Assembly (NCBI GenBank): GCA_977020255.1 | Contig: CDROCS010000457.1 | Coordinates: 434,001 to 498,000 of the forward strand | DNA: 64,000 nt | Direction: 5' to 3' | Source: Obrimoposthia wandeli | Taxonomy: Eukaryota | Shown: positions 29,530 to 53,078 of the stretch, in pieces | How the letters are laid out: each line of letters begins with the position of its first letter | How positions within the stretch are numbered: position 1 is the stretch's first letter | Notes under the pieces: generated by a model | Database searches by the model: none | What the model was told of the DNA's origin: nothing | What the model saw: the letters and a program-made list of their open reading frames with translations, nothing else | Translations under genes and position numbers: made by a program

Positions 29530-31043
29530 TGTTAGGAATAGGTTTTGATAAAATTAAAATGATTAATCATTATTATACTAAAATAAAAATCCTTGAAAGC
29601 AAGGTTATAATTAAGATAAAATTAATTATAAAATTAAAATTATAAAAATAAAATCATAAGGAAAATATTAGGACCACGAAGGTCATGTGTAGTGTGTGAG
29701 TATTTAAGGGATTTTAAACTTTACCAAAAGGCCCCAAAAAATTTAGCTAAAAATAGGAAGAAGTTGATTAACAAGAAAAAAGTTCATTGAAAGAAGAAGC
29801 AAGCTCAGAATTAATTATACGGAGAAGGAAGCAGAGCCGAGACAACGAGCACTCAGACAAGTGCATTAGACCACTTAGCGACGCTGCAAGAAGACAGCGA
29901 CTATCCAAATCCCAGCGCCGAGATCCAGTCTGCGCAAATTAGCGACACCAAAAGAAGACGCTGAGAACCGCCAGCCAGATCCACATCAGCGAGGTAGGTG
30001 CACTTAAAATTAAGTGCAGCATTAATTTTGTTCTAGGACAGGAGAAGCAACTATAAAAAGAAGAAGCCAGTAATTAGAAGACACAAGATTCCAGGGAAAT
30101 AACAGAAAATTAAAATTGAGAACTCGTCGATTTATTCCGAGTAATAACAGAAAATTTCAAATTGAGAACTCGTCGATTTTAATCCGAGTCAGAGAATAGT
30201 AGAAAATAATTAGAGAAGCAGAAAAGGTGGGTCTGCAACGCAGAAGAAGAATTAACTTTCCTTTTTAGAAAAGTAGAGTGGAGCTAAAAGGAGGTATGGT
30301 CAGCATCTGGAACCAGGAATCGAACGAGCCCGGGCGTACGGATATTTGGAGTGAGCCGGAGTCTGCCTACAGATTAGGAAGGTGAGCAGTAACAAACTAG
30401 AGTACGATTTTGCCAATTGTTAAATTCTCATTTTGTTAAAAAGACTCTACAAATTAGAGTACGATTTTGTTAAAGTAAACTCAGTTGTCCATTTTTTGAG
30501 AAAACTAAAGTTGTCCGTTCTAAGTAAGGAATTTGACTTAGAGAATCAGATTGAGATAAAAGAGTTTGATTAAGAAAACTTATTAAAATCAACCCATATT
30601 TTTAGAGCAACCAGCTCTCTAAAATCTAAACTTAACCTATATTCGCCCATAATTTTAGAGCAACAAGCTCTCTAAAATCAGCCATATTTTTGGAGTAAAG
30701 ACTCTAGTAAACAAACCACCCTAAAATAAAATCGATACGTGGATCATCCCCACTTGTGTAGAGACTTTGTGAAAATTTTAGGAATTGTATTGTCATTTTT
30801 AGAACGTAATTAGAACATGTTTAGCTTTGTGTGTTTAGTAATAAACGATTTCCTACAACTAGACAGCGTTGTTATACCCTTCATATTAGAAATAACAAAC
30901 CTTCAGATAAGAATTGAGACAGACAAGCATAACATTAAGTAGGCCACGAACATCTACAAGTCCTGCTTCTATAGAACTCACGTTGGGGCCCTCTATTCAG
31001 AGGTTCTATATTAGAAAAAGAGTTTCATATAGAAACCCCAACA
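29530..31043 (+). repeat. 5' LTR (family A, copy A2)
   Basis: Starts tgttagg and ends ccccaaca. TATA-like tatttaa at 29701; AATAAA at 30840-30845. Confidence 0.92.
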
Positions 31044-31051
31044 TATTAAAT

Positions 31052-31358
31052 TGGTGACCCGAGTGAGGATAGCACTATTTTTTAGAACGTAATTAGAACG
31101 TGTTTAGCTTAGTGTGTTTAGTAATAAACGATTTCCTACAACTAGACAGCGTTGTTATAGACCCTTCAAATTAGAAATAATAAACCTTCAGATAAGAATT
31201 GAGACTGGCAAGCATAACATTAAGTAGGCCACAAACATCTACAAGTCCTGTTGCTATAGAACTCACGTTGGGGCCCTCTATTCAGAGGTTCTATATTAGA
31301 AAAACAGTTTCATATAGAAACCCCAACATATTAAATTGGTGCCCCAAATGAGGATAGC
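31052..31358 (+). promoter_or_regulatory. Two primer-binding sites (31052 and 31337) separated by a duplicated LTR 3' end (~31078-31328); probably elongator tRNA-Met
   Basis: TGGTGACCCGAGTGAGGAT and TGGTGCCCCAAATGAGGAT compared with the complement of the animal elongator tRNA-Met 3' end, TGGTGCCCCGTGTGAGGAT. Each follows ccccaaca-tattaaat. Confidence 0.75.
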
Positions 31359-31660: not shown

Positions 31661-31829
31661 ATCGAGTGGAATTGTTCTCAAACAAAGTCCTCGAATTAAA
31701 TAAATCGGAGTAAATAAATTGAATAAGTTAAGTCGAGTCGACAAAGTCCTCGAATTAAATAAATTGATATAAGAAATCGTAAAATAAGAATTGTGAAATA
31801 AGATAAAAGTAATAAGTAAATTGATATCG

Positions 31830-33800
31830 CAAACGAATACATAATTGATAAAACAACGAATAATAAAAAGGGACCCGCATTTAATACTAGAAGACAAAGA
31901 CAGATTCTTCAGGAAGAGATAAATAATAATAGTTTTAGCCGAATTGAACAGGTTCCTCAAACAGATAAAAAAGTAATAGAAGAAACTAGAATCGAAGAAA
32001 ACGTATCAGAAAGGGACGTTAATCAATCAGCAGTTTCAACCGACAGTTTTGATTTGACTGATTTGTTTGGTGAAATAAACCAAGAAGAAATTGAAGTTAT
32101 TGAAGTTCAAAACCCAGAAGAAATTGAAATTGCCAATCCAGTAGAGGTTGAGGAAGTTCAATTGGATAATATTGAAGAAATAGCTGAGAATATAGCTGAA
32201 AATATGGCTCAAGCAGGAGCTCAACCAGGTAATAACCCAGGAAATAATGTAGGTGGAATGAACGCAGAACAGTTGGCACAAGCCTTGAATGCGACATTGA
32301 GACCCAACTTTTCTGGATCACTGCAGATTACAAAGTTTAAAGGAGATGAGGAAAGTATTTGGGACTTCCTCGCAGAACAATCGAGTTGTGCAGATGTTCA
32401 AGGATGGAACGATAGAGAAAAATGTGTCCGTGTACAGGCACATCTGACCGGATTAGCACTTGAAGTGTATAAACATTTGACACAGCAGAACGTTTAAATT
32501 AGGAAACGTTGGAAAGTGCTTTTATTGGAAAATTGGTATTGGGAGACTTAGCAAAAGTAAATAAGCGAATCATGAGAGAACGGAAACAGAAACATGTTCG
32601 AAAGCGTGAGTTAATACGCGTATGTTTTGAGAACCTTGGCCGCACGAGTGAACCCAAGAAGAATAGTGAGAAATCAGGCAGGTGACCCTGTAGCTCAAGA
32701 AGCACAAGTAGCGGAAGATGAACGGAACCAAAATGAAATGGCAGAAGTTTTGTTAGATATATTTAGAGGAGGACTGAAAAAAGACATTAAAATGTTATTG
32801 GCCGTATCGGATACAAATGATTTTGATAACGCCGTTCGAAAGGCGAGAGAAATTGAGAAAAATATAAAAAATAACGCAGCATTGGCAATTTACGCAATGG
32901 CCGCAGGTTATGGCGATAATACAAAGGTATTTGTGAATAAGACAGAACCGAGTAATTTTCAGAATCGAAATTATGGACAAAATAAGTTCGAAAAAAGAAG
33001 ATGAATCCAGTAACGGAAATAGAGATAATTTCAGAAGTAGAAATATAGATTATTCGAGAGGTAGAAATAATAGCGAGCCTTGGAACAGGAATCGAGACGA
33101 TTCAAGAGGTAGAAGTAGTAATGATTCGTGGAACCGAAATAGAGATGATTCCAGAAATAGATTTGGTAGAGATAATTCAGGAAATCGCCAACCGTGGAGA
33201 GGAGACGATAGGAATTATAACGCAAACAGAGGAGAGCGAAATGACTTCCGATTTGGAAATAATACCGGAAGTAGTGATAGAAGATTCAATAATCGAGGAA
33301 GCAGTTTTGAATCAAATTTCCGAAGAAATGATTTTAGAGGACGCTATGACAATAGACAAAATAGTCGTCGAGTACAGTTCGAAGATGAACAAAATAAGAT
33401 AGATATTCGAAGGAGAATAATGTGTTATACGTGTAAACAGATGGGTCACTACTTGAGAGATTGTACGAGAAGTAAAGAATTCGGAACTAACAGATTTGGA
33501 AATAATAATTTCGGAAATAATAATTTTGGAAATAATTATAGAGGATATAATTCACCCCCGCCGTGGAATAGAGGTGGTGGGTATACTCCACCGCAATGGA
33601 GACCGAATAATCAGTATACGGATAGACAACAGTCACCAGACAGATACAATAATTATGCAGACAGACAGCAAGGAGCTGAGAGATACAATAATTACGTAGG
33701 ACAGCAAGGAGCTGAGAGATATAATAATTCCGGAAGATATAATAACAATAATGTTGACAAGACAAACAGTCGTGAGGGTTCACCAAAACCGAAGGGAAAT
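31830..33800 (+). pseudogene. gag: Gag (frameshifted) with CCHC zinc knuckle and R/N/G-rich repeats
   Basis: Fragments 32054-32497, 32627-33004 and 32973 onward. Capsid-like LQITKFKGDEESIWDFL..W..LTGLALEVY and ESVS*YAYVLRTLA. Knuckle CYTCKQMGHYLRDC at ~33422-33463. Confidence 0.88.
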
Positions 33801-34337
33801 TTTAGTTACGTAAATGATGACAGCGATAGGAATCTCGAGACCGAACTTCGACGCGAAATAGATTTTGAAGATAGTGATAATAAATTCGAACGAATGTTGG
33901 GAATAATTAAAGATTCACCGCATACAAAGATGGCGAATTCATCTACGTTGTCGAAACAAGAAAAAAATCTACACTCAAGAGAAGAGATGAGTGATTTGAT
34001 GAACCGAATACTAGAAGTGCATGAGACACCAATCGAGAAAACGTGTAACGCACAACCTATGACTGATCACATAGAAGTAGCAAGAAATGCTAAGAGTATG
34101 GAAAATGTGATAAAGATAATTAATGAAGCTAAAGAGACGTTGAATCAACCGTTAGAGGAAGCGAGTGAAGCTCCAGAAGTTTTGGCAAAACTACAAACAA
34201 TTAAAGTTCACAGATTGGAAGAAGTGCGAGCAGAATTGGTTAAACATAGTCATGATAACTTGACTTACAAAGACATATTACGAGGATTATTGAAAGGATA
34301 TGGTCGTTACGTACAGAGATCAAACCAAAAAGGAACG

Positions 34338-34565
34338 CTGAAAATTTCACTTCGATTAATTTCCGGACAGATTATGCATGAAAAACTTAACGTATACCAA
34401 ACAATGAAAACAGTTCGAAAAAAGTTGGCCGAGAAACTTGAAATTGATGGAATGAATATGTTGTTCCATTATAAAGGGAGATCACTAGATGATGAGGACG
34501 TACCAGTCGAGTGTGGATATCCGATAGGAAACGAATTAGAGGAAAAGATTGATGTCATCACTGTA
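34338..34565 (+). CDS. SUMO/ubiquitin-like domain within the Gag-extended ORF
   Basis: LKISLRLISGQIMHEKLNVYQTMKTVRKKLAEKLEIDGMNMLFHYKGRSLDDEDVPVECG..EKIDV follows the beta-grasp pattern and has SUMO-like F..G..L.D...P...IDV. Confidence 0.7.
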
Positions 34566-35061
34566 GGACGTCAGGAGTTAGTAGATAATGAAGGATTGGC
34601 TAAGATATTGAATTCTGCGTTAGATATGATAACAACGCCTATAGAAATTTTAGACAGTTCAAGCGAAAGCGGAAATAATAATGTAGCTGAAGCTTGGAAC
34701 AAGACGTCCACACCTGAACCAAACGTAGCTGAACCAGACGTGGAACCAAAAAATGAGTTGACGAATCTGGTAGTTGAATTACCACCAGAGCAGGATATAA
34801 TTCAAACCAGACAAGATGAAGTCACGGTTGTAGCTAACCAAGTGAGAGAAAGCGAAAATGTAACCGAACTAGTTGGAGAAGACGAAGTCTCCGATATTGT
34901 AGATTTAGATTCACCAATTTGGCATGCCGCATACAGAGATAGACAAGCAGAGCAGACGATGCGACAAAACGAGGAGATTGGTCATGTAGCAGGACCAAGT
35001 CAAGAGGTACGGTATAATGATGAACCGTATGATCCAGGTGAGAATCAAACTGAGTATCAGT

Positions 35062-35095
35062 ATTTTCGAAGAGGACCTGGAAGACCTAGAAAGGA
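35062..35095 (+). other. AT-hook motif
   Basis: RRGPGRPRK in ORF 32973-35198. Confidence 0.6.
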
Positions 35096-35222
35096 CGGAA
35101 GTATATTACGAAATGTTCTAACTGCACCTCAAACTGATGAGGAGAGACATCAAAGAATTGGGCAGTTAGAAGCGTCATTAGAGCAGTATAGTGCATAGCG
35201 AAATGAAGATATCAGAGGTGAT

Positions 35223-35630
35223 ATGAATTCGGAAGCTCCAAGTAGTAAATATATACTTACGGGAATTCTCAGACAAGTAAAGCCGAAGTTGTTCAAAATG
35301 TACAAAGATGAAACAACCGATATAACAGACAATTTGACTAGAGCAGTTAGATCACAAATGTCTGCAGTGAAGAGAATGACTGCGAATCAAGGATACCATG
35401 TATCGATAGACAAATTTTACGATGGCGAAGTTTTAGCGAGATTATGAGGAAACCAGACTACAAATAAAAAGCTAATCACAGCGATTACATACCTATGTTT
35501 CCAATTGACGGAAAGAACGAGCCAACCCCACGAAGTCAAACAAGGAATAAATGAAGCGATGTATCTGATCGAGAACGTATTGCAGCGACGAATTGTCGAA
35601 AACGGAGGTTGGGCAAAATTAAGCGACTAC
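35223..35630 (+). pseudogene. Bcl-2-like domain (one internal TGA)
   Basis: RL*GNQTTNKKLITAITYLC sits at a BH1-like position. NVLQRRIVENGGWAKL matches BH2 (cf. RHLHTWIQDNGGWDAF). Same frame as the Gag ORF and the env signal peptide. Confidence 0.55.
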
Positions 35631-35738: not shown

Positions 35739-37545
35739 ATGTCCACAACGTTGATGATGATGATGTTAGTAATGTTTATGGGAATGCAACAGGCATCAGC
35801 GTTAGTAGCATACGACTGTAGCGTACCACAGATGGGACAAAAGTATTCACTGTCCAGAATCACAGCCATCAAAATTAGAAATTAAAGGTGTTGAAAACTA
35901 TGTCGTGTATTAGGATGTTGATAAAATACAAGTACAAGTGAAGGAATGTTCAGTTCATTCAAGTTATCACGAATTTTACTGTGGTCATAGAAGTTTCATG
36001 TCGGAAATCACACCTACCACACCGTACAAACCACACAAGGTCTTTCCGAGAGATTGCGAAGACGCATTTCGAACAGGAAAAATAGAAATAGATAAGAATT
36101 ACACACCTGACGTAAAAGTTGGGGTGAGACGATACGAAACAGTCACGAGAGTAGGACGACGATGGGCTGATGGATCTTGTGACGGAGGAACAAAAAACGT
36201 GCGTGGTACCAAAGTAACAGCCTTAGTAATGGACGTAACTTACCAGATCGAATTAAAAACATGGACCGCAAATTTTGATAAAAATACAAAACGAATGATG
36301 AAGTATCCGGAATGTAGATTGACAGATACATCTTGTCATACAGGTTAATCCACAATTGTGTATCACGTGGATACAAAACAATGCTCATTAGTATTTTTGA
36401 AAGAAATTAAATTTAATAAAATAAAAGGGTTCCTGTATAATAAAGATGGAGAAGGATTTCATAACACAACAGGACCAATTCCTACGACGCTGACACGTAC
36501 ATTGTTAATGGCAACATCAACAGAAGAAGGATTGATATTTATTAAAAAGAGAAATAAAGCGCGATGCGGAATGACTGTTAGTACTACAAACTATCCTGGA
36601 ATAGTTTTGTCAAGAGAATCAATAGCATTGGCAGGAACCAAGTTAAAACCTAGAGATATGCAGCTACACACGTATTTTAATAATAAAATTGATTTCTATT
36701 ATCATAAAGGATTGATGCAAATGGAACAGTTATATCGGATGATGATTGAGAGAGATTGTCAGTTAAACAAAGAGATTGTAAGAACAAAGTTAGCATTAGC
36801 TATTACGAATCCGGACATGGTAGTACCATTATTACCCTTAGATGAAGGAGTATTTGCTAAAACCATGGGAGAGGTACTGTATACTTACAAGTGTAAAAAA
36901 GTAGAAGTACAGTTGAGAAAAACAGACCGATGTACGAGTGAATTGGCAGTAACGCATAATTTAAAAGAACTCTTTGTTGAACCAATCACGAGAATGATAC
37001 TTCCAAAAGACACTCCAACCAAAGAAATCAGCTGCTCTAATATAATGGCACCTGAATATCAGATGACGAATGATCTATGGATAACGCTACCTGACCGAAA
37101 ACAAACAACAACTTCAAAGATGATAAAAATGACGACTCTTAAAGGAAAAATGAAATTCGAAGCGATAAAGAATATGGAAAATGTAGGTCTATACAATGAG
37201 AAAGACTTAAAAGCAGCCTGGAACGAAATAATGTTTCCAGTAAGAAGGGCCAGAGTACTTACGGAGATGGTACATCGTGCATTACCGCCAGGAGCTAGAT
37301 ATGCGAATTTTGATATGTTATTGTCGCCAAGTCATTTCAAGGAAGCAGCACATCAGACATTTAGAAAGATGTGGGGGAAATTCCTTGTTTTAGGACAGTT
37401 ATTTTCAGGTATTTATGTTATAATTAAATTTGTGCAGGTAATTATAGCCCAGGTGTTGTCTACGTATAGTTTATACAGGATAACCGGAATCACCTGGCAA
37501 CTTATAATTGGATGTTTTCCATTTTTAGCTAAATATATAATGCAC
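35739..37545 (+). pseudogene. env: Envelope-like class III fusion glycoprotein (chuvirus/Jingchuvirales G-like); one frameshift (~35860-35930) and one stop (36346)
   Basis: Signal peptide MSTTLMMMMLVMFMGMQQASA followed by LVAYDC. Motifs CSVHSSYHEFYCGHRS, YFNNKIDFYYH, CQLNKEIVRTKLALAITNP..GVFAKTMGEVLYTYKCKKVEVQLRKTDRCTSELAV..LFVEPITRMI. C-terminal hydrophobic block WGKFLVLGQLFSGIYVIIKFV...LIIGCFPFL. Confidence 0.82.
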
Positions 37546-37914
37546 CATCATCACGAGAACGAGTTGCGAGCCCTCAAGAAGGAGCAACATCAAACGAGAA
37601 CCATGATACGAGAACCAAGAAACTACCGAGACGACAACGACGACGATAACGATAGTCCAGGAGAATATGCGAAGATACCAAATACAGGACAAGCAAAGAA
37701 TCCATTACAAGACAAGGAAGAAGTGGAGCCAAACCTATATCCAATGAAGGAATTAAAGGAAGAGAAGGAAAAGTTCAAGAGAAGCATTTTAATGATAAGA
37801 TGGCCTAGAGTGAACTACAGTGAGATTCCACAAGCAGAAGAAAGAGACAAAAAAGATAATTCCAGAAGTATTCTGAAGTCTAGGATATCCAATGAGAATC
37901 CGAATGCTCCACCA

Positions 37915-38200
37915 CAGGTAGCAGTAACACTGAACGGAAGAGAATACCTTGTCGAAGTTGATACTGGATCTGCAGTATCAGTGCTGAGTAAAGAAATCTT
38001 GTCATCAAAAGAATTAGGAGCAGTATGTCCTAGAAAACAGACATTTGTTAACGTAAATGGTACAGATGTAGTATCAGAAGGAACACTGAAATGTAAATTA
38101 ATTATTGATGGAAGACCATTGCAGTTAAATGCTAGAATATTCACAGATTGTGGTAATCCAGTCATGATTCGGATGGACGTAATACGAATGTTTGAAGGAA
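37915..38200 (+). CDS. Retropepsin aspartic protease, copy 1
   Basis: VTLNGREYLVEVDTGSAVSVL (DTG at 37960)...FVNVNG...PVMIRMDVI. Confidence 0.85.
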
Positions 38201-38450
38201 TAATAATATTACCAAACAACAAGAGTTCAAATAACAACAGTTCAGTGAGAGATATAAAGATGTTGAGAGGACCTACAGTTGAAAAGGAAAAATACACTAG
38301 TTTCTGTATGGGAGATCCGTACCGAAACAGGAAACAGGAAGTGTTAGTAAAGTCGATACTTCATTACAAAGGAGTAGACAACGGACCACAAGCCATGGGG
38401 AGGAGGAAAATAACATATGATAGTATAGGAGAAACAGCTCCTTTTAGAAT

Positions 38451-39445
38451 CGAGAGGAATAGACGAAGGTCACTAGAACCGTACCATTCAAAAGAAATGA
38501 CACACAAAATGGCGAGAACGGGTTTACAAATGTTAAACGGAGATACGACAAAAAACTCTGGTTCTGAGAAAGTAGTACGATGCGTATATTGTAGAGTAAA
38601 GTTTAGAAATTGGGAAAACAATGATAACCCAATGAAACGTCATAAAAGAAAAGCACCAACATGTCCATTCCTCCTGAAATTGAGAACTGCAAACGAACCA
38701 AAAATTCAAACTGGAAAGGCACCCGATTTTGACAACAGTGACGAGATTCCAGAAGGAGGAACAGTTCAAATAATAGGCATGTGATAACAAATAGTCGAAT
38801 TGAAGACGTATTCGAAGTAATGCGAGAAATAAACGAATGTGACGAACAATATCGAGAGGTAACATTTGAAGATCCGAGACTTAAAAAATTGGCAAAAAAG
38901 GGACTTTTTGCTATAAAAAAGGATGGTAAAGACGTAATTAAATGCCACAAATGTAAAAAAGAACGAATTATTGACAGATATACTCTTGAGTTACCTAAGA
39001 AAACTTTACATCATGAATTTTGCGAGTTTGTAGTTTTAAAATCAAAATAAAGCAAAAAGAACAGAAAACTGAATGTATAGTCGAATACCAAATCACACGG
39101 AAAGAGATTTTGGCTCAACAAGACACACCGGTAGTGTCATTCGTGAGAAGACTATATCCAAAAGAAGCAGAAAGAATCAGAGATTTGGTAGAATTAAAAA
39201 TAAAAACTACGCGAAACGGATACGGATCAATTTTTGAATTACTACGAGATAAAGATGACAGTTCAATTGAAACAAAAGAGAAAGAGTACATAAATGAACT
39301 AGAATACATGCTAGAAGATCTGGAATGCGCAGTTTGTATGGTCAACAAAGTAGAAGTTGCCTTTTTACCATGTAGACATGTGAGAACATGCCGGAGACGT
39401 GCGAAGGAAATGGTAACATGTCCGATTTGTAGAAGAATAATAGAT
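38451..39445 (+). pseudogene. IAP-like module: BIR - BIR - RING (frameshifted)
   Basis: BIR1 RRRSL..MARTG..VVRCVYCRVKFRNWENNDNPMKRHKRKAPTCPF (CX2CX16HX6C). BIR2-like REVTF..LAKKGLF..DVIKCHKC..HHEFCEFV. IAP-type RING CAVCMVNKVEVAFLPCRHVRTCRRR..CPICR, with one Cys to Arg change. Confidence 0.88.
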
Positions 39446-39559
39446 CGACAAGTGAGAAATATTAGATTTCACTATCCAAACAAAATAAGTGGACCGACAA
39501 AATGTAATAATTCGATAAATACGATATACCATATGGGAAATATAAATAGAGCACAGCGA

Positions 39560-42500
39560 CCAGCAGCTATCATTAGAGCAAATAATTTAAAAGTAAAAGC
39601 CTTAATTGATACAGGTGCTGTAGCTTTGATAGTAAGTGAGGATTGTTTGACAGAGGAACAGAAACAAACAATGGCAGAACCAGATCAATTCTTTGTATCG
39701 GCCAATGGAGACCCTGTAAAAGTGACGGGAATATTACCCTGTACATTTATAATTAGACGTAATACGATCACTATATCAGTTAGAATCATGAGAGAATGTC
39801 CTGAACCTACAATTTTAGGAATGGATGTATTATCACAACTCAAAGGGATAAGTATCGATTTACAAGATCCAAGATTGAAGGATAGCACATCAAATAGACA
39901 AATAAACCAAATCGATGTAATTATAGAAAATCCTATAAAAATCGGTAAAAGATCACAATTTCTTATTCAAGGTCACACATTATCAGAAGATAAAGGACCA
40001 GTTGTGTTCGAACCATCACGGGATTTCATAGAGAAATACGAATTATCAATTGTGAGTACAGTATGTCTGATCGAAAACCACAAAATATCAGTTAGACTGA
40101 TGAATACAACCAACAATGACATCCTGTTATACAGAGGAATGAGGTTGGTAAAGATAGCACAGATAGAGAATTCCACTGTGTGTGCTATGAAACTCGATAA
40201 AGACACGAATGATTACGAAGAAATAGTAATCCAATCAGAAAGACTGACAACCAGAGAAAAGAAACAATTACTCGATCTAATACATAAATTTCCAAAAGTA
40301 ATTGCAAAAAATCCGTATGACATAGGAGAAACACCTGTCATAAAACACACAATACCACTGACAGAAGATAAAGTAGTCAGAAGAAGACCATATCGAGTAC
40401 CATTACAGTTACAAGATGAAGTCAAAAGTCAGATTGAAGATATGTCTAGAACAAGAGTAATTAGACCGAGTTTTTCACCATTTTCAGCACCTGTAGTGTT
40501 ACTAAAAAAAGAAGGATGGAAAAATAAGATTCTGTAAAGATTTCAGAGAACTGAACAAGATCACAAGAAAAGATGTGTATCCATTACCTAGAATTGAAGA
40601 GATGCTTGATAAATTAGGTGATTCAGACTATTTTACGACATTGGATTTGCAGAGTGGATACTGGCTAATCGAGATAGAGGAATAGGATAAATACAAAACA
40701 GCCTTTTCCTGCGGAGATGGACTATACGAATGCGAAAAATGCCATTCGGACTAACAAGAGCGCCAGCAACATTTCAGCGTTGCATGAATTTTGTACTCGC
40801 ATCGTGTGCAAACACGATGGTTTATATCGATGACATAATAATATTTTCTAAGACGTTCGAAGAACATCTAAAAAATCTTGAAGTTGTATTTAAAAGACTG
40901 GAAAACGCTAAATTAAAAGTTAAACCTACAAAATGCGAATGGGCTAAAGAGCGAGTAACATTTTTAGGACATATAGTATCGAAAGAAGGCATCCGACCTG
41001 ATCCAGCAAAGATCGAGAAAGTAAAAGCGCATCCAGTGCCAAAGACTGTTAAGGAAATACATAGTTTTTTAGGTCTTGCGAATTATTATAGACGATTTGC
41101 TGAACATTTTTCAGATATATCAACACCATTGAGAAAGTTGACGAGGGAAGATGAGAAGTTCATATGGGGAAAAGAAGCACAACAAGCGTTCGAGCATTCA
41201 AAGGAAAGACTGATAAAAGCACCAATATTAGCGTTTCCAGATATAAACCGACAATTAATACTGATGACGGATGCAAGTAACTATGCTGTAGTAGCAGTAT
41301 TGGGACAAGAGGATGACGAAGGAAGAGAACACGTCATCGCGTATGCGAGTAGAGGGTTAAACAGAGCCGAAAGAGGATACTCTGTTATTGAGAAGGAATG
41401 TATAGCCATAGTATATTCATGTAGACAGTACAGACACTACTTGCTAGGACAAAATGTATTCCTGTATACAGATCACAAACCACTACAGTTCTTGTACAAA
41501 CATAGAGACGATATGAACAGATTAAACAGATGGTTTCTGAATTTGTCCGAGTTTGATCTAGAAATCCGTTATAGAACCGGAAAGTGGAATGGCAACGCAG
41601 ATTGTTTGTCAAGATTAATAAATGTAGACGAGAAAGGAAACATAATTCCGGAAAAAGGTCAAGATGAAGTCAACGACCAAAAAGGAGAAGCAAATCTCCT
41701 AACGATTTTGCTGAAGACGCGTAAAATAGACAAAGAGATCATCAAGGAATAGAAAGAAGATGAAGAACTGAGTCTAATCAAAGAATTGTTAGTGAAAGGA
41801 GATATAAATGATGAAATGACGAAAAAATACTCGATAAAAGAAGGAATCTTGTATATTGTCAACAATGTCGGCAATATAGTAGTAGTAATTCCGAAGTCAT
41901 TGAAAACAGCAGTGATGATCCAGTACCACGATGGAACACTGGGAGGACATCTGTCAGGACGAAAGACAATAGCCAGAATCAAAGAGAAGTACCATTGGGA
42001 TGGGATGGAAGATGACATAAAACAATGGTGTAAACAATGTAAAGTATGTTTAACCAGAAAAGACACAGGAACTCGTACTAAAGTTCCACGGAAACCAATG
42101 CCAGTTCCTTTGGCACCAATGGAATTCACAGCGATGGATATATTGGGACCATTGAGAGAATCGAGTAAAGGAAATAAGTACGTCATAGTATTTACGGACT
42201 GCATGACGAGATGGGTAGAAGCATACCCCATGCAAAACCAGAAGGCTGAAACAATAGCGCAGATCTTAGTAGAAGAGATAATATTTCGATACGGAGTGCC
42301 TAGAAAGTTATTAACGGATCAAGGCAAGAACTTCACTGGATAAGTAATAAAAACAGTATCGAAGATATTCGGAATCATGAAGTAACAAACTTCACCATAT
42401 CACCCACAAACCGATGGTCTAGTATAAGGGTTTAATAAAACTTTATGTATGATGGTACAATCTTATTGCTCCGATAAGCAAGAAGATTGGGATAAGTATT

Positions 42501-42750
42501 TACCTTCATGTTTATATGCTTACAGAAATTCAGTTCGAGAGGCGATGGGTCACACACCATTCTATCTGATGTATCTCAGACAGAACAATATGCCAATGGA
42601 TCTGGAGTGGACCGAACCAACATCTCAGTAGATAGAAACTGAGCAATACATTGTCGTTATGATACAAAGACTACAATATGCTTGGACTAAAGCAGGATTG
42701 AAATTGAAATTCAATCAAGAAGATTACAAAGAACAATATGACAAAAAGAT
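39560..42750 (+). pseudogene. pol: Pol: protease copy 2, reverse transcriptase, RNase H, integrase (stops and two compensating frameshifts)
   Basis: KALIDTGA (39608). RRPYRVP, FCKDFRELN, YPLPRIEEMLDKL, MPFGL..APATFQR, YIDD (40823). RNase H TDAS..EKEC..TDH..NADCLSR. Integrase HDGTLGGH..CKQC, MDILGPL, TDQG.NF, TSPYHPQTDG. Confidence 0.96.
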
Positions 42751-43720: not shown

Positions 43721-46460
43721 ATGCCACCAATAAGTGAGATAATTCCAGACATGTTATACCTCGGAAATGTGGAAGACGCCACAGACGAAAAGAAACTGTT
43801 GGAAAAATGAATAACATATGTGATCAATGTTACAATGAATCACGAATCGCGATACAAGACAATCAGAGCTATGACATTAAGAGTGAAAGACTCAATGGAG
43901 GCTAATCTTCTCGAATGGTTCGGAGAAACAAACGAGATAATTTACAAAGAACTCCAAAACCAAGGAAAAGTATTGGTACATTGTCAGAAAGGAATCTCTA
44001 GATCAGCAACCTTGGTATTAGCATATCTAATAAAGAATAGGCGAATGCAGGTACTAGTGTTAGGTTTAGGAATTAGGAAATTAAAATAATTAGTCGATTT
44101 TATACTAAAATAAAAATCCTTGAAAGCAAGGTCGAAAATTAAATTAAATATTAATTTTAAAATTCAAAATTAAAATTATGGAAGTTAGGATAAAAATTAG
44201 GAGGACCACGATGGTCGTGTATAGTGTGTGATATATAAGGTTAGAGTTAATTAACCCAAAAGTGCAAAAAACGGGAATAATTTAGAATCTGCTAACGTCA
44301 GCAGAAAGAAAAACGTCAGCAGAAAAAGGTAAGCACATTCACGTGCAATTAATTTAGATCGATTTAGTTAACAGCAGTCGCCGAGCCCCGGAAAAGCAGA
44401 AGAAGTCAAGAGTGCTGATTGACAGCACATAGTCAACTAGTCAACTATATAAGTCGTGGAACTCATATCACAAGTTGACGAAGTAGAAATAGCCGAAATC
44501 CAAATTGCCAAGTTGACTGCAGAGGATCAACAATTGCCTGCATTAATTGTTTAAGAAGCATATTCCTACAAACAAAAAGACCAGAACGAAATCAATATTC
44601 CAGGTCTACTGAGAGGAAAATTGGTAAGTCAGATTTGGATTTGACTTCATTGAAATAATCAATAATTTAGATTGTCGCAGTTGATTGATTTAGAAGCCTA
44701 AAGTTTGATAAAAAGGAGCAAATAAATTGTTAAAGAAGTTCGCAGTTGATTTATTTAGAAGCCTAAAGTTTGATAAAAAGGAGCAAATAAATTGTTAAAG
44801 AAGTTCGCAGTTGATTGATTTAAAAGCCTAAAGTTTGATAAAAAGGAGCCAATAAATTGTTAAAGAAGTTCGCAGTTGATTTATTTAGAAGCCTAAAGTT
44901 TGATAAAAAGGAGCCAATAAATTATTAAAGAAGTTCGCAGTTGATTTATTTAGAAGCCTAAAGTTTGATAAAAAGGAGCAAATAAATTGTTAAAGAAGTT
45001 CGCAGTTGATTGATTAAGAAGCCTGCTCATTTCCAACGGTTGCATTCGAAGACGATCCCACAAGTTCGTCAGTACTACATACGGACTCCAGTACCGGATT
45101 GACGTTCGAGCAACGTATAGGTGAGAAACGGTTTAAAATAATCATTGCCCCTAGTTGGCAATTAGGATAAACTCATTGTCCCTAGTTGGCAATTCGGATT
45201 TGTAACATATTCAAACAAAATCATTGTCCCTAGTTGGCAATTCGGATTTGTAACATATTCAAACAAAATCATTGTCCCTAGTTGACAATTAGGATTGTCT
45301 TTAACAAAATCATTGTCCCTAGTTGACAATTAGGATTTGACTCTAATCTAGGTTGAACTGTGTCTAATATTCGTTGTAATATTGTTTCGAATTTGTGTAA
45401 ACTAATATCATTTTGCATTTGTGTTAAACTAATATCATTTCGAATTTGTGTTGAACTAATATCATTTTGAATTTGTTTTAAACTAATATCATTTTGAATT
45501 GTGTTAAACTAATATCATTTCGAATTTGTGTTAAACTAATATCACTTCGAATTTGTGCTAAACTAATATCATTTCGAATTTGTGTTAAATAATCATTGTC
45601 CCTAGTTGACAATTCGGAGCAAATACTCATTGTCCCACGTTGACAATTCGGAGCAAATACTCATTGTCCCAAGTTGACAATTCGGATAACGTATTCATTG
45701 TCCATAGTTGACAATTAGGCTTTTATAAGAATCATTGTCCACAGTTGACAATTCGTGGTTAAATTCACAATCATAGAATTGCCAAGTCAAGAAACTTTAC
45801 CCACACGTTCTAAGTTAGGTTGAAGAAATTTAAGAGAGTTGTGTTATAAATTAACCAACCTAGGAAGAAGATTGCATTGCACCTTTGTCTTCATAAGAAT
45901 AAAGGTTTAACCCCAACATCCAAACCGATAGCAGAGTAAAGTTATTAAGAAATCTATAACACGAGCTTATTCTCGAGTTAGAAGAATAACTCTAAAATCT
46001 CGATCACCCCGAACGTAAAATCGATACGTGGTTCATCCCCACTCGTTGTAGAGACTTACAGAAGTCTTAGGAATTTTTACTATACTTTTTAGAAAATACG
46101 TACATAAACGTATTGTTGTGTTTAGTTTCGTGAATTACCAATAAACGATTTCCTACATTAGAACAAGTCGTTTTTTCACCCTTCTGATTAAGAGACATCA
46201 AATCAAATACCTTCAGATAATACAAGAGATAGGCAACCATAACACTAAGTAGGCCACGACCAACTTTAAGACCTGCTTCTATTCGAACTCACGTTGGGGC
46301 CCTCCGCATTCAAGAGGATCTGTACCAAGTTTCGTATAGAAACCCCAACACTAGAAGCGCTGAAATATCTACATGAAAGACGAAGTATCGCGAACCCAAA
46401 CCTTAATTTTTTGGGACAATTGTCAAATTACCAACTTCTGTTACAAGAACGGAGACGGAT
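43721..46460 (+). pseudogene. Dual-specificity phosphatase in the pol reading frame, split by a solo LTR (43721-44057 + 46355-46460)
   Basis: PISEIIPDMLYLGN..*ITYVINVT..VKDSMEANL..VLVHCQKGISRSATLVLAYLIKNRRMQVL|EALKYLHERRSIANPNLNFLGQL. The HCX5R motif and general-acid Asp are intact. Confidence 0.93.
44058..46350 (+). mobile_element. Solo LTR, family A (copy A3), inserted in the DUSP gene
   Basis: tgttagg...ccccaaca with TSD CTAG at 44054-44057 and 46351-46354. Removing it restores MQVLEALKYL. It contains ~58-bp, ~27-bp and attgtccctagttg-based tandem arrays. Confidence 0.96.
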
Positions 46461-49615: not shown

Positions 49616-49741
49616 CAAGTCTCGAGGAGGTTGTAAATAAGGGAGTGTGTAAAAATATGTAGAAATATGTAGAAGCGATTGTACAAACAAGTAGAATTAT
49701 GTAAAATTCATGTAGAAATTAATTGTCATCATGTATTTAGA

Positions 49742-50060
49742 ATGTCTGAGGAATGCCCAATATGTTTGGAAGATATAACCGAACAAAGAACAAGACCCAA
49801 TACCTGCAACCACCTACACCACGAGGAATGTTTATCATAATGGATCACAACTTATGGAGAGTTCCCCCATCCAATATACCCTCGTTGCCCTGTATGCAGA
49901 AGACAATTCACAAAGTTCATCATAATAGAACCCAACCAAGAGGATGTAGATGTACAGGTGGTATTCTGTTGGAAGAATTTGAGAGAGTGTTGGTGTTTCA
50001 GAACGACAAGATCCGACCGCTTTTGTGTAAACATCACAAAACCACTAACCCTCAATCGAG
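49742..50060 (+). pseudogene. RING-H2 ORF 1 (TAA at 49838)
   Basis: MSEECPICLEDI..TCNHLHHEECLS*WI..RCPVCR. Missed by the ORF track because of the stop. Confidence 0.85.
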
Positions 50061-50090
50061 CCCAAATTCAACATCACCCCTCTCACAGCA

Positions 50091-50396
50091 ATGTCTGGAG
50101 AATGTTCCATCTGCTACGAGAACATCGTGGACCTTTACACCAAACCCAACAACTGCGAACACAAATTCCATGTCCAATGCCTCGAGACATAGATCCCAGT
50201 TGTCAACAGCAACAAGCCCCTCGACTACCCAACCTGCCCGATGTGCAGGGCATCCTTCTCGGTACACTTCGTATACAACCGAGACTGCCTTCAAGCAGTG
50301 GTACCCATCGTACACTACTGGAAGGACATCTGCGACTGCTGGTGTATGTTCTGCGCGGAGGAGCGACGCACAGGCCAGCCCGACAGCCAACAATAA
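50091..50396 (+). pseudogene. RING-H2 ORF 2 (TAG at the conserved Trp, 50190)
   Basis: MSGECSICYENI..NCEHKFHVQCLET*IP..TCPMCR..HYWKDICDCWCMFC. Confidence 0.85.
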
Positions 50397-50692
50397 TGGA
50401 AGGTAACTTTTTGACATAAACGTGACATCATGAACTAACCCTGTGTATCGCATACCGCGGTAAAATAGCTACCATAATTGTAATCATATTTGTATAATAT
50501 TGTGAAACTGTAAAATTACCTTTACCATTTTTATGTGTGATGTTTATTGTACTGGGAAACCCCTAAAGACAAATTTATACTTAGAATGCGAAAAACATAC
50601 CCAAAGAAAAGACAAAAATCGGTAGGTTAAAATATTAAGGCTTAAAATCATATAAACTTCAAATAAAAAAGTGATTTAACCGATACACCATT

Positions 50693-50923
50693 GTGCAGAT
50701 GATATGCTCGGTGTGCCTCAACAAAGTTCGGGACTCCTCGGCAATCCCTGCCGGGTGCCGTCACCGATTCCACGAAGCGTGCCTCTATATGTGGGCCAAA
50801 GCTCGACCCGCCGGCAACATCACATGCCCGATGTGCCGAGCACCCTTCACCGAGTGGACGATCCAATGCCGTGGACGTTCAAAGGGCACCCGCTCACCTA
50901 CCAGCTGTATTGGTGGCGAGTAG
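50693..50923 (+). CDS. RING-H2 ORF 3 (intact)
   Basis: CSVCLNKV..GCRHRFHEACLYMWAK..ITCPMCR. Confidence 0.88.
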   Translation: MQMICSVCLNKVRDSSAIPAGCRHRFHEACLYMWAKARPAGNITCPMCRAPFTEWTIQCRGRSKGTRSPTSCIGGE

Positions 50924-51507
50924 TGCCGATGCCCCATCTGCCCTATGCGCCGTCGCGACGCACAGCGCAATATACGAGAGGTGTGGCGGTCTAGCCGTGA
51001 CCACCACTCGTGGCAGTACGCTCGGCGAGTGTGGCTCAGCAACCATGAGCAGCACAGTTCCGGCGCCCCCTAATCCGCCAAAGCCCGCATCTGAACATTT
51101 CCCAGCAGCTGGGGCTTTACCAGGGCGACACTCCAGTGTTTCCAACGTTGCCCTTGGAGCGGGTGATGCTGTTCCTCGAGAAGCGGAACAGGCCAGTGCC
51201 CACCATCGACTTAACAATGGATGACTGATGGAACACTGACACTTTACCTTTCCTTCTCCTTTTCCTTTTCCTTCTCTTAACCTTCTCATTCGTAAAACAT
51301 TCATTTCTGTAAAAATACATGTCAATGGAATATTTGTTGACCATGTCCAAATTATACCGAAAATTACCGATTCTTGTCAACTAGTGGGTATGTTGAAGAG
51401 TAATTGAATGTTTGAAATTAAGTGGGGATGCTTTTTCTAAATTCTGGGATTAGTAAATTAAAATCGATACGTTCCGAGGACGTAACATTTTTGGAACCCC
51501 CGAGATA

Positions 51508-53078
51508 TGTTAGGATTAGGTTTTGATAAAATTAAAATAATTAATCATTTTTATACTAAAATAAAAATCCTTGAAAGCAAGGTTATAATTAAGATAAAAT
51601 TCATTATAAAATTAAAATTATAAAAATAAAACCATCGGGAAAATATTAGGACCACGAAGGTCATGTGTAAGCGTGTGCGATATATATAGATGTTAAAATA
51701 AAAGTAAAGGGCCCCCAAAAAACAGAATTAGCCGGTTAGAAAAAAGCCCAAGGAAAATTGAATTAAGCGAGTCAATTAAGGAAATTATCAGATCGATTCA
51801 TTGTGAGAATCGAGTCAGTTGCCGAGACAGACGAAATCCAACAGCAATCCATTGCTGAACAGAGCCGCGCCGGGAGCAGAGACAGCCATCTGTAAGTAAG
51901 TGCTTTTTATTAAGTGCTCTACTTAAAATCGTTCCAGGAGCTAAAGTAAACAATAAACAAAAAAGAAAAACACTTACTAAGCCAAAAAAAGGAGAAACCC
52001 AATTTCCAGGAAAGCACTTAGCAATCGGGGCTAAAGAAAAAGAAAGATAAATTAAGTACTTTTAAAAAGCACTTACGTAACAATTTCCAGGAAAGCTATT
52101 AGTGCTTCGGGAAGGCCAGGAAAATTAGAATTGCATAAATAGAGAAGTGCAAAAAAGAAAATAGAACGTAGCCAGAGAATCGCGCCTCATCTGACCTCAG
52201 AGGAAAAGCAAGAAGGTAAATCGGCGACTAAGAAAGCTAAGTTATTTCCTTTAGGAGCCAGAAAAATTAGAAGCCACAAATTGGAATCGGAACAAACAGA
52301 GGGCATCGGAGCGATCAGGAAAGATCTCTTCTAGCAACCAGATTCGAGCAAACAGAGGGCATCAGAGCGAGCAGACCAAATCTTTTCCTACAACTAGACC
52401 TGGGCAAACCTAGGACCGCGTCAGCCGACTCCGTTGATCGACGCCAATAAAGCAAATAAAGGTAAAAAACAGCTGACGATTTAGATCCTAAATAAAGGAT
52501 TGTGTTTTATTGAATCTCCATAAGAGAAATTTAGATCCTAAATAAAGGATTGTATTTTATTGAATCTCTATAAGGAAATTGTAGATCCTAAATAAAGGAT
52601 TGTATTTTATCGAATCTCCATAAGGGAAAATTAGATCCTAAATAAAGGAGAACTAGAAAACGGATTTGACCCTAAACTACCCATAGTTTTAGAGCAACTA
52701 GCACTCCAAAATCAGTCCCCATTTTTAGAGTAAAGACTCCAGTAACTAAACAAACCGAAAATAAAATCGATACGTGGATCATCCCCACTTGTGTAGAGAC
52801 TTTGTGAAAGTCTTAGGAATTGTATTGTCAATTTTAGAACGTAATTAGAACGTGTTTCACTTAGTGTGTTTAGTAATAAACGATTTCCTACAACTAGACA
52901 GCGTTGTTATAGACCCTTCAAATTTAGAAATAACAAACCTTCAGATAAGAATTGAGACAGGCAAGCATAACATTAAGTAGGCCACAAACATCTACAAGTC
53001 CTGCTTCTATAGAACTCACGTTGGGGCTCTCCGTCTGAGGATCTATATTAGAAACAGTTTCATATAGAAACCCCAACA
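51508..53078 (+). repeat. 3' LTR-position copy of family A (A4)
   Basis: tgttagg...ccccaaca, with ~55-bp tandem repeats at 52480-52650. The centre is unlike the 5' LTR. Confidence 0.88.

What the first reader, a model, noticed from the sequence alone, without database searches (positions are those of the whole stretch)
37915..39850. IAP (BIR-BIR-RING) module sandwiched between two paralogous retropepsins
Seen: two DTG proteases with shared features (FVNVNG/FVSANG; CGNPVMIRMDV/CPEPTILGMDV) flank a BIR-BIR-RING cassette. Established: BIR+RING is the architecture of baculoviral and animal IAPs. Inference: a protease duplication accompanied IAP capture, or lets env-PR1 and IAP-PR2-Pol be processed separately so that a free IAP is released.
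Basis: partly seen in the sequence, partly recalled or inferred. Interest (0 to 1): 0.75.

Follow-up and report, generated by a model that had tools for sequence, protein, structure and literature searches.

The report
Anti-death cargo between twin retroviral proteases
A giant, virus-like jumping gene carries a cell-death-blocking module inside its one long protein between two conserved protein-cutting enzymes that likely cut it free; the anti-death cargo is already known from flatworm "Burro" elements, but the twin cutters also occur in relatives that lack it, so they likely came first.

Summary
Confirmed, with corrections. The stretch lies in a decayed copy of a very abundant ~23.5-kb Burro-like LTR retroelement. 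In sister copies env-PR1-BIR1-BIR2-UBA-like-RING-PR2-RT is one reading frame (11 of 20 env-picked copies unbroken). Both proteases keep the catalytic Asp (48 of 48 each) and show purifying selection (shared-variant dN/dS 0.12 and 0.18). BIR1 is canonical; BIR2 is a conserved variant below Pfam's cut-off. Three distant relatives also have a post-env plus a pre-RT protease (one up to ~6), none with an IAP between them. So the duplication probably predates IAP capture; env and RT trees agree, so there is no sign of fusion. The IAP is colinear with stand-alone IAPs of Maverick-like elements in the same genome (30-32%). Release of a free IAP is plausible but untested. BIR cargo and a functional B-IAP are published for Burro, and this scan earlier noted the element family and the Maverick link on other DNA. 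I found no mention of the multi-protease layout, but could not read two key papers.

The parts
29530..31328 (+). 5' LTR of the host retroelement (TG...CA, ~285-bp tandem duplication at its 3' end)
   Evidence: 89-94% to the 3' LTR over the aligned pieces
31820..35450 (+). Broken gag (CCHC knuckle) and cargo region with a ubiquitin-like segment
   Evidence: PF00098 E 1e-4; PF00240 E 0.06; several stops
35750..37545 (+). Monjiviricetes-type fusion glycoprotein (env) inside the polyprotein, ending in one predicted membrane anchor; broken in this copy
   Evidence: PF24664 221 bits; hydropathy on sister copies
37912..38211 (+). PR1, post-env retropepsin-like protease (DTG 37960-37968)
   Evidence: purifying selection in the family
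38251..38265 (+). Invariant hydrophobic motif in the fast-evolving PR1-IAP linker; candidate cut site (inferred)
   Evidence: 111-113 of 112-113 copies per position
38347..38676 (+). N-terminal extension plus BIR1 (C-x2-C-x16-H-x6-C); the start matches the start of the stand-alone Maverick IAPs
   Evidence: Foldseek top rows are BIR domains but none at E<=0.001
38830..39030 (+). BIR2, variant BIR (C-x2-C-x18-H-x3-C); out of frame with its neighbours in this copy
   Evidence: 17.3 bits, under cut-off; 16.4 bits vs best of 200 shuffles 7.8; ligands kept in 82-88 of 88 copies
39068..39300 (+). UBA-like domain of cIAP/XIAP type
   Evidence: colinear weak match to the cIAP1 construct 3t6p; E 8e-6 to 6e-4 against 3 PF21290-bearing IAPs
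39326..39472 (+). IAP-type RING finger; one zinc ligand lost in this copy
   Evidence: (best PDB hits cIAP1/cIAP2/XIAP RINGs)
39512..39526 (+). Invariant motif between RING and PR2; candidate cut site (inferred)
   Evidence: 98-104 of 101-104 copies per position
39560..39859 (+). PR2, the protease in the ordinary pol position (DTG 39608-39616)
   Evidence: purifying selection
39880..42650 (+). Conserved PR-RT spacer (the position where Burro has a dUTPase-like domain; no Pfam hit here), then RT, RNase H and integrase, broken
44058..46350 (+). Solo LTR of a related family inserted into a dual-specificity phosphatase domain, 4-bp target duplication
   Evidence: 73% to the element's LTR
51508..53078 (+). 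3' LTR

Best explanation
This is a BIR-BIR-UBA-RING apoptosis-inhibitor module that sits in frame between two selected aspartic proteases of a Burro-like retroelement polyprotein; it was likely inserted into an older two-protease gap, and the proteases are predicted to cut it out as a free protein that would block host cell death. Steps. Shown: one frame env-PR1-IAP-PR2-Pol in sister copies; purifying selection on PR1, PR2, BIR2, UBA and RING; two or more proteases without an IAP in three relatives; a colinear stand-alone IAP in Maverick-like elements. Inferred: signal peptidase separates Gag from Env, leaving PR1-IAP-PR2-Pol on the cytosolic side of the Env anchor; each protease trims its own ends at the invariant motifs, which frees IAP and Pol; PR2 does the ordinary Pol processing and PR1 handles release from Env or has another timing or specificity; the freed IAP binds caspases or their regulators through BIR1 and ubiquitylates through UBA-RING. 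The window copy itself is dead.
For: Single frame: 11 of 20 env-picked copies carry both DTG motifs in one stop-free ORF; 18 of 22 scorable PR1-picked copies have BIR2 and RING in frame; ORFs of 4335 and 4645 aa without a stop. Selection in 49 copies not picked by PR1 similarity: shared-variant dN/dS PR1 0.12, PR2 0.18, BIR2 0.13, UBA 0.10, RING 0.16 versus 0.58-0.93 for private changes, Fisher p 6e-3 to 7e-6; catalytic Asp 48 of 48 for each protease. Relatives: P0059 env-PR-[two C2H2 fingers]-PR-RT plus a third PR after integrase; L171 env-PR-[75 aa]-PR-RT; P0062 env plus 4 PRs and P0110 2 PRs plus RT; no BIR by Pfam in any. All 11 giant-element proteases form one clade against 40 ordinary gypsy proteases (97/91). 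Env and RT-RH trees have the same four-taxon topology. The IAP's five best matches among 155 proteins are the Maverick copies and three unnamed colinear proteins (115-143 bits vs at most 91 for other IAPs), one clade with SH-aLRT 94. Junction motifs are invariant inside variable linkers. A Burro1 BIR+RING region is reported to protect planarian stem cells from caspase-mediated death (second-hand, PMC13465017 passages).
Against: No cleavage, expression or caspase data here. PR1 orthology is unresolved: neither 'PR1+PR2' (AU p 0.24) nor 'all post-env PRs' (p 0.41) is rejected, and PR1 grouped with the pre-RT proteases (96/85), which fits a lineage-specific re-duplication. Support for the giant-element clade fell to 81-83/83-88 with fewer outgroups. 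One protease could cut both ends in trans, so the IAP does not need two. The cut-site pattern was defined after looking, has about 0.9% background density, and was missing at many flanks in the relatives. The candidate cut would leave about 31 residues after the last RING Cys, whereas 120 of 144 cellular hits end at 13, and position 11 is Ile instead of the usual aromatic (role of that residue in PMC5702613 passages). BIR1 differs from cIAP1 BIR3 at two peptide-groove positions (alignment; their roles recalled). The dN/dS is crude: copies are not independent and no tree was used.
Confidence: 0.6

Rival explanations
1. PR1 is a lineage-specific duplicate of PR2 made when the IAP was captured; the extra proteases of the relatives arose independently.
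For: PR1's two best BLAST partners are P0059's post-integrase PR (56.6 bits) and PR2 (55.8), ahead of other post-env PRs (40.4 or less); PR1 joins the pre-RT clade; repeated independent duplication is evident in P0062 (b, c, d clade 100/97); AU tests do not reject PR1+PR2.
Against: 3 of 3 relatives have a protease in the same post-env position without an IAP; PR2 is closer to the relatives' pre-RT proteases (64-80 bits) than to PR1 (56); PR1-PR2 identity (28-29%) is as low as between elements.
Confidence: 0.2
2. The two proteases serve particle assembly, not the IAP. The IAP stays bound to Env-PR1 or to Pol, or is freed only inside particles, and acts membrane-tethered or is delivered to the next cell.
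For: The twin layout exists without the IAP; Pol is predicted to hang on the Env anchor, so early cutting at both IAP ends would detach it before packaging (inference); the RING tail is atypical.
Against: Invariant motifs flank the IAP exactly outside the limits of the stand-alone Maverick protein; UBA and RING are under purifying selection.
Confidence: 0.25
3. The region is the junction of two fused elements (env-PR1 from one, IAP-PR2-Pol from another).
For: PR1 is a long branch whose place is unsure.
Against: Env and RT-RH give the same topology and rank order among four elements; both proteases fall in the giant-element clade; the layout recurs in relatives.
Confidence: 0.05
4. PR1 is a conserved but non-catalytic or regulatory dimerising domain, for example tuning PR2 by heterodimers.
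For: PR1 scores lower on protease families (below Pfam cut-offs in the window) and evolves on a longer branch.
Against: DTG kept in 47-48 of 48 copies per position and the second motif in 44 of 48; dN/dS 0.12.
Confidence: 0.1

Closest known systems
Burro1-4 / GYPSM1 giant Ty3/gypsy elements of planarians (PMC6431247 section 7 read whole, figure not seen; Grohme 2018 not held)
   Same: Giant LTR element; one huge ORF with gag, ubiquitin-like segment, in-frame mononegavirus-like env between gag and pol, BIR, PR-RT-RH-IN.
   Different: The review names one PR and does not place BIR between two proteases; no MATH or ankyrin hit in the ORFs scanned here; this family also has phosphatase domains; no Burro sequence was available for a direct comparison.
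Burro1 B-IAP (Lee et al. 2026 Dev Cell; seen only as cited in PMC13465017 passages and reference list)
   Same: BIR+RING region in a planarian giant retroelement, reported to protect stem cells from caspase-mediated death.
   Different: Whether it lies between two proteases, has UBA or a second BIR, or is released by cleavage could not be checked; the paper is not held.
cIAP1/cIAP2/XIAP/DIAP-type cellular IAPs (PDB 3t6p, 3eb5, 2ecg, 1sdz; lophotrochozoan BIRC7-like proteins)
   Same: BIR...UBA...RING order; best PDB hit cIAP1 E 4e-14; best profile hits are Lingula and Pinctada IAPs with PF21290.
   Different: Embedded in a polyprotein; RING not C-terminal; second BIR has H-x3-C spacing; altered peptide-groove residues; intronless.
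Stand-alone IAPs of Maverick/Polinton-like elements in the same genome (L106, L110, L124 and others)
   Same: Colinear from start to end, 30-32% identity, E 1e-43 to 1e-44; one clade with the retroelement IAP.
   Different: Separate gene beside TBP-like, A32 ATPase, integrase and polB genes; BIR2 reduced or lost; no flanking proteases.
Unnamed env-in-polyprotein relatives P0059, P0062/P0110, L171
   Same: Env then a post-env protease, then a pre-RT protease; RT-RH 54-59% and env 40% identical to this family.
   Different: No BIR or RING; the gap holds C2H2 fingers, a short basic linker or further proteases.

Membership tests
Burro/GYPSM1 giant Ty3/gypsy elements | Giant LTR-bounded element with PR-RT-RH-IN order | tested here: met
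   ~23.5 kb including a 2.3-kb inserted solo LTR
Burro/GYPSM1 giant Ty3/gypsy elements | Single very long ORF with env in frame between gag and pol | tested here: met
   L062 gag to BIR1 in 2170 aa, L066 PR1 to integrase in 1602 aa; open frames of 4335-4645 aa
Burro/GYPSM1 giant Ty3/gypsy elements | BIR cargo | tested here: met
Burro/GYPSM1 giant Ty3/gypsy elements | BCL2-like and dUTPase-like domains | tested here: inconclusive
   No Pfam hit in the expected positions; no profile-profile test run
Burro/GYPSM1 giant Ty3/gypsy elements | RT groups with Burro1-4 | not testable with these tools
   No Burro sequence was returned by any search
IAP family (BIR-containing, cIAP/XIAP type) | Canonical zinc-binding BIR (BIR1) | tested here: met
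   PF00653 47 bits; four ligands kept in 87-91 of 91-93 copies; model region pLDDT 65-69 with BIR domains as top Foldseek rows, none at E<=0.001
IAP family (BIR-containing, cIAP/XIAP type) | Second canonical BIR | tested here: inconclusive
   Below Pfam cut-off, H-x3-C spacing; above all 200 shuffles here and in P0050, P0052, P0053, not in the Maverick copy; model pLDDT under 50
IAP family (BIR-containing, cIAP/XIAP type) | UBA plus IAP-type RING | tested here: met
   no direct PF21290 hit on the segment itself
IAP family (BIR-containing, cIAP/XIAP type) | RING at the protein's C-terminus with the locking aromatic residue | tested here: not met
   Internal RING; Ile at position 11, Phe at 13; would depend on cleavage
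IAP family (BIR-containing, cIAP/XIAP type) | Caspase inhibition or E3 activity | not testable with these tools
   Needs an experiment
Retropepsins (retroviral-type aspartic proteases) | D-T/S-G motif and downstream hydrophobic-G-x-D motif in both PR1 and PR2 | tested here: met
   (family level; the window's PR1 deviates in the second motif)
Retropepsins (retroviral-type aspartic proteases) | Dimer-dependent proteolytic activity | not testable with these tools
   No complex job was run; activity needs an assay

The most novel reading that the evidence does not exclude
A clade of giant env-in-polyprotein retroelements keeps two to about seven selected retropepsins in one element and uses the gap between the post-env and pre-RT proteases as a self-excising cargo bay. 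Here it was loaded with a complete IAP gene from a mobile lineage shared with Maverick DNA elements, so a DNA-virus-type anti-death gene is expressed as a cut-out of a retroviral polyprotein, and its BIR1 N-terminal part evolves fast against the host.
Probability: 0.3. Interest if true: 0.72.

Novelty: new variant of a known kind. Interest (0 to 1): 0.48.

Why it matters
Retroviruses and LTR retrotransposons normally have one protease (recalled). A lineage that keeps two or more under selection shows how a 5000-residue polyprotein with an internal envelope can be processed and can take up whole host-manipulating genes. It also gives a concrete, testable answer to how the IAP of Burro-type elements, reported to aid planarian stem-cell survival, becomes a working protein, and it links cargo between retroelements and Mavericks. 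The IAP cargo itself is not new.

Tried and rejected
1) Programmed -1 frameshift between BIR2 and RING: 19 of 30 copies picked by DNA likeness to the window showed a one-base offset there. Among copies picked by PR1, 0 of 22 scorable had it and 18 were in frame. Rejected as ascertainment by the broken query. 2) Fusion of two elements: env and RT trees agree. 3) Structure prediction: single sequence mean pLDDT 36, seven-row alignment 39; only BIR1 usable; Foldseek gave nothing at E<=0.001. 4) Searches for named relatives: one search gave ordinary gypsy pol proteins, nothing, nothing, three unrelated-looking viral IAP loci; the ESM Atlas gave no answer. 5) A host intron-bearing donor IAP: the 84 candidates scored of 17394 that I inspected (L151, L163, L165, L167) were Maverick or retroelement copies, so this is unresolved; survivin-like and BRUCE-like host BIRs were seen (labels recalled). 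6) Expression: no RNA holder listed; contigs of two runs of unknown kind cover the stretch and say nothing on expression. 7) Positive selection on BIR1: dN/dS of the N-terminal part is 0.59-0.65, not above 1, so relaxed or locally diversifying selection cannot be told apart. 8) A loose BIR-like regex hit in P0059's spacer overlaps a C2H2 finger; Pfam finds no BIR there. 9) PDB search with PR1 gave only DDI1 at E 0.32. 10) Literature on double proteases in LTR elements: one search returned 0 papers; one search listed 30 of 96, none evidently relevant by title or abstract start; none was read.
Full report
1. Observation. The stretch 37915-39850 lies inside an LTR retroelement running from about 29530 to 53078 (LTR pieces 89-94% alike). 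Pfam on the window's ORFs gives, in order, a CCHC knuckle, a weak ubiquitin-like hit, a Monjiviricetes fusion glycoprotein (221 bits), a weak protease, BIR (47 bits), a weak second BIR (17.3, cut-off 22.9), RING, a second protease, RT, RNase H, integrase and a phosphatase split by a solo LTR. The two proteases align without gaps at 28 of 99. The window copy is dead: the cassette lies in three frames, the RING has lost a zinc ligand, and PR1 deviates in its second motif.

2. The family. The genome holds very many copies: 150 scored of 18986 candidates match PR1 at 91-100%. I first suspected a programmed frameshift between BIR2 and RING, because 19 of 30 copies picked by likeness to the window showed an offset there. 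Copies picked by PR1 showed none: of 40 fetched, 22 had both motifs, 18 were in frame and 4 had other offsets. Of 20 env-picked copies, chosen by me from 89 rows mostly for long frames and so biased, 11 carry both proteases and the IAP in one stop-free ORF. Stop-free frames reach 4335 and 4645 aa. The cassette is therefore part of one polyprotein.

3. Selection. I compared variants shared by several copies (inherited from active lineages) with single-copy variants (mostly neutral decay). In 49 copies not picked by PR1 similarity, shared dN/dS was PR1 0.12, PR2 0.18, BIR2 0.13, UBA-like 0.10, RING 0.16 and BIR1 zinc core 0.22, against 0.58-0.95 for private changes. The PR1-BIR1 linker (0.55) and BIR1 N-terminal part (0.65) were not distinguishable from private changes (the same picture with 95 and 115 copies). 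Both catalytic Asp residues were kept in 48 of 48. This is a crude count on non-independent copies, but it says both proteases and the odd BIR2 were maintained while the family spread. Two short hydrophobic motifs, just after PR1 and just before PR2, are nearly invariant inside variable linkers. A similar motif follows PR2 and flanks some but not all proteases of the relatives. I read them as candidate cut sites; the pattern was set after looking.

4. What the IAP is. The best PDB match is the cIAP1 construct 3t6p with BIR, a weak UBA-region match and RING in order. The segment before RING matches the corresponding region of three PF21290-bearing lophotrochozoan IAPs. BIR2 has C-x2-C-x18-H-x3-C, scores 16.4 bits on a profile of cellular BIRs against a best shuffle of 7.8, and the same spacing recurs in distant homologues. 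Folding was poor except for BIR1. A BIR search of the genome was dominated by stand-alone IAP genes beside TBP-like, A32 ATPase, integrase and polB genes, i.e. Maverick/Polinton-like elements. These are colinear with the cassette from start to end at 30-32%. With three unnamed proteins they are its five best matches of 155, and the five rows that entered the tree (P0052 lacks BIR1) form one clade, SH-aLRT 94, quick tree with 40 of 78 usable cellular IAPs. The direction of transfer is unknown and no host donor was identified. Against a simple release model: 120 of 144 cellular hits end 13 residues after the last RING Cys, the predicted product would end about 31 after, and the usual aromatic position holds Ile (its role in RING dimers from PMC5702613 passages). 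The Maverick versions carry 18-residue tails, so the lineage tolerates some extension.

5. Why two proteases. A search of 1.84 billion representatives with the cassette returned long retroelement proteins without BIR. P0059 has env, a protease, two C2H2 fingers, a protease, RT-RH-IN and a third protease. P0062 has gag, env and four proteases, and P0110 has two proteases and Pol; these two share a contig length, so I infer but have not shown that they are one element. A metagenome contig, L171, has a 3703-aa gag-env-PR-PR-Pol frame with 75 aa between the proteases. So 3 of 3 long relatives examined have the post-env plus pre-RT pair and none has the IAP. All 11 giant-element proteases form one clade against 40 gypsy proteases (97/91; weaker, 81-83/83-88). 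PR2 is closest to the relatives' pre-RT proteases (64-80 bits vs 56 to PR1). PR1 is a long branch: it joined the pre-RT group and was unresolved, and AU tests reject neither 'PR1+PR2' (p 0.20, 0.24) nor 'post-env clade' (p 0.12, 0.41). Env and RT-RH trees of the four elements agree, so there is no sign of fusion. Position argues that the pair is older than the IAP; the tree neither proves nor denies it.

6. Mechanism. Shown: single frame, selection on both proteases and on the IAP core, IAP-free relatives with the same pair, a shared mobile IAP lineage. Inferred: the Env signal peptide and single anchor put PR1-IAP-PR2-Pol on the cytosolic face of the membrane; the proteases trim themselves at the invariant motifs, releasing an IAP slightly longer than the stand-alone Maverick protein; it then limits caspase-driven death of the host cell. 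I put this at 0.6. The rivals are a tethered or particle-delivered IAP (0.25), duplication at capture (0.2), a regulatory PR1 (0.1) and fusion (0.05); they are not all exclusive.

7. What is known. PMC6431247 section 7 (read whole, figure not seen) describes planarian Burro/GYPSM1 elements with BIR, BCL2-like, ubiquitin-like, dUTPase-like and in-frame env domains, and names one PR. PMC13465017 (passages) cites Lee et al. 2026 for a functional B-IAP of Burro1. That paper and Grohme 2018 are not held, and their text and supplements may bear on novelty. Searches for double proteases in retrotransposons found nothing relevant (listings only); some searches were also seen as listings. That the host is a planarian is an inference from this likeness. 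Earlier notes of this scan reported the same element family and the Maverick-shared IAP on other DNA and Burro-like elements in other genomes; look-ups for the protease pair returned nothing.

8. Verdict. The feature is real and family-wide. The IAP cargo is known; the selected twin or multiple protease layout with interchangeable cargo appears undescribed in what I could read. New variant of a known kind; interest 0.48.

Noticed in passing
P0062 and P0110 (unnamed proteins): Four DTG proteases in a row after env and two more before RT (one DSG); three of them form a recent clade. Possibly one element with about six proteases.
   Followed up: partly
P0059 residues ~2305-2408: A third intact-looking protease after the integrase domain.
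   Followed up: partly
L101-L130, L151-L162, L165-L167: At least two abundant Maverick/Polinton-like families with stand-alone IAP genes (341-aa and 301-aa frames), a TBP-like gene and, in L165, a dual-specificity phosphatase, a cargo type also present in the retroelement.
   Followed up: partly
window 44058-46350: Solo LTR of a related family (73% alike) inserted into the phosphatase domain with a perfect 4-bp target duplication; it holds several tandem arrays.
   Followed up: partly
window 30797-31328: The 5' LTR ends in a ~285-bp tandem duplication that includes the LTR end and the following primer-site-like stretch; absent from the 3' LTR.
   Followed up: no
family alignment, window ~38270-38570 and the two codons after BIR2: Amino-acid changes shared between subfamilies pile up in the PR1-BIR1 linker, the BIR1 N-terminal part and two codons right after BIR2, while PR, UBA and RING stay nearly fixed.
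   Followed up: partly
L163 5528-8155 (- strand): A copy with an in-frame tandem duplication of BIR2; L165 is a Maverick IAP with an in-frame loss of the BIR2 remnant.
   Followed up: no
window 49690-50420 and 50690-51230: Cys-rich, RING-like pieces in broken frames near the 3' end of the element, read by eye only.
   Followed up: no
L101 1381-1872; L102 BIR frame (- strand): Likely host BIR genes, survivin-like and BRUCE-like (labels recalled; Pfam BIR 80 bits for L101).
   Followed up: no
L171 12085-13470: Downstream ORF with a weak RNase_T exonuclease hit (E 1e-3) beside the two-protease relative.
   Followed up: no
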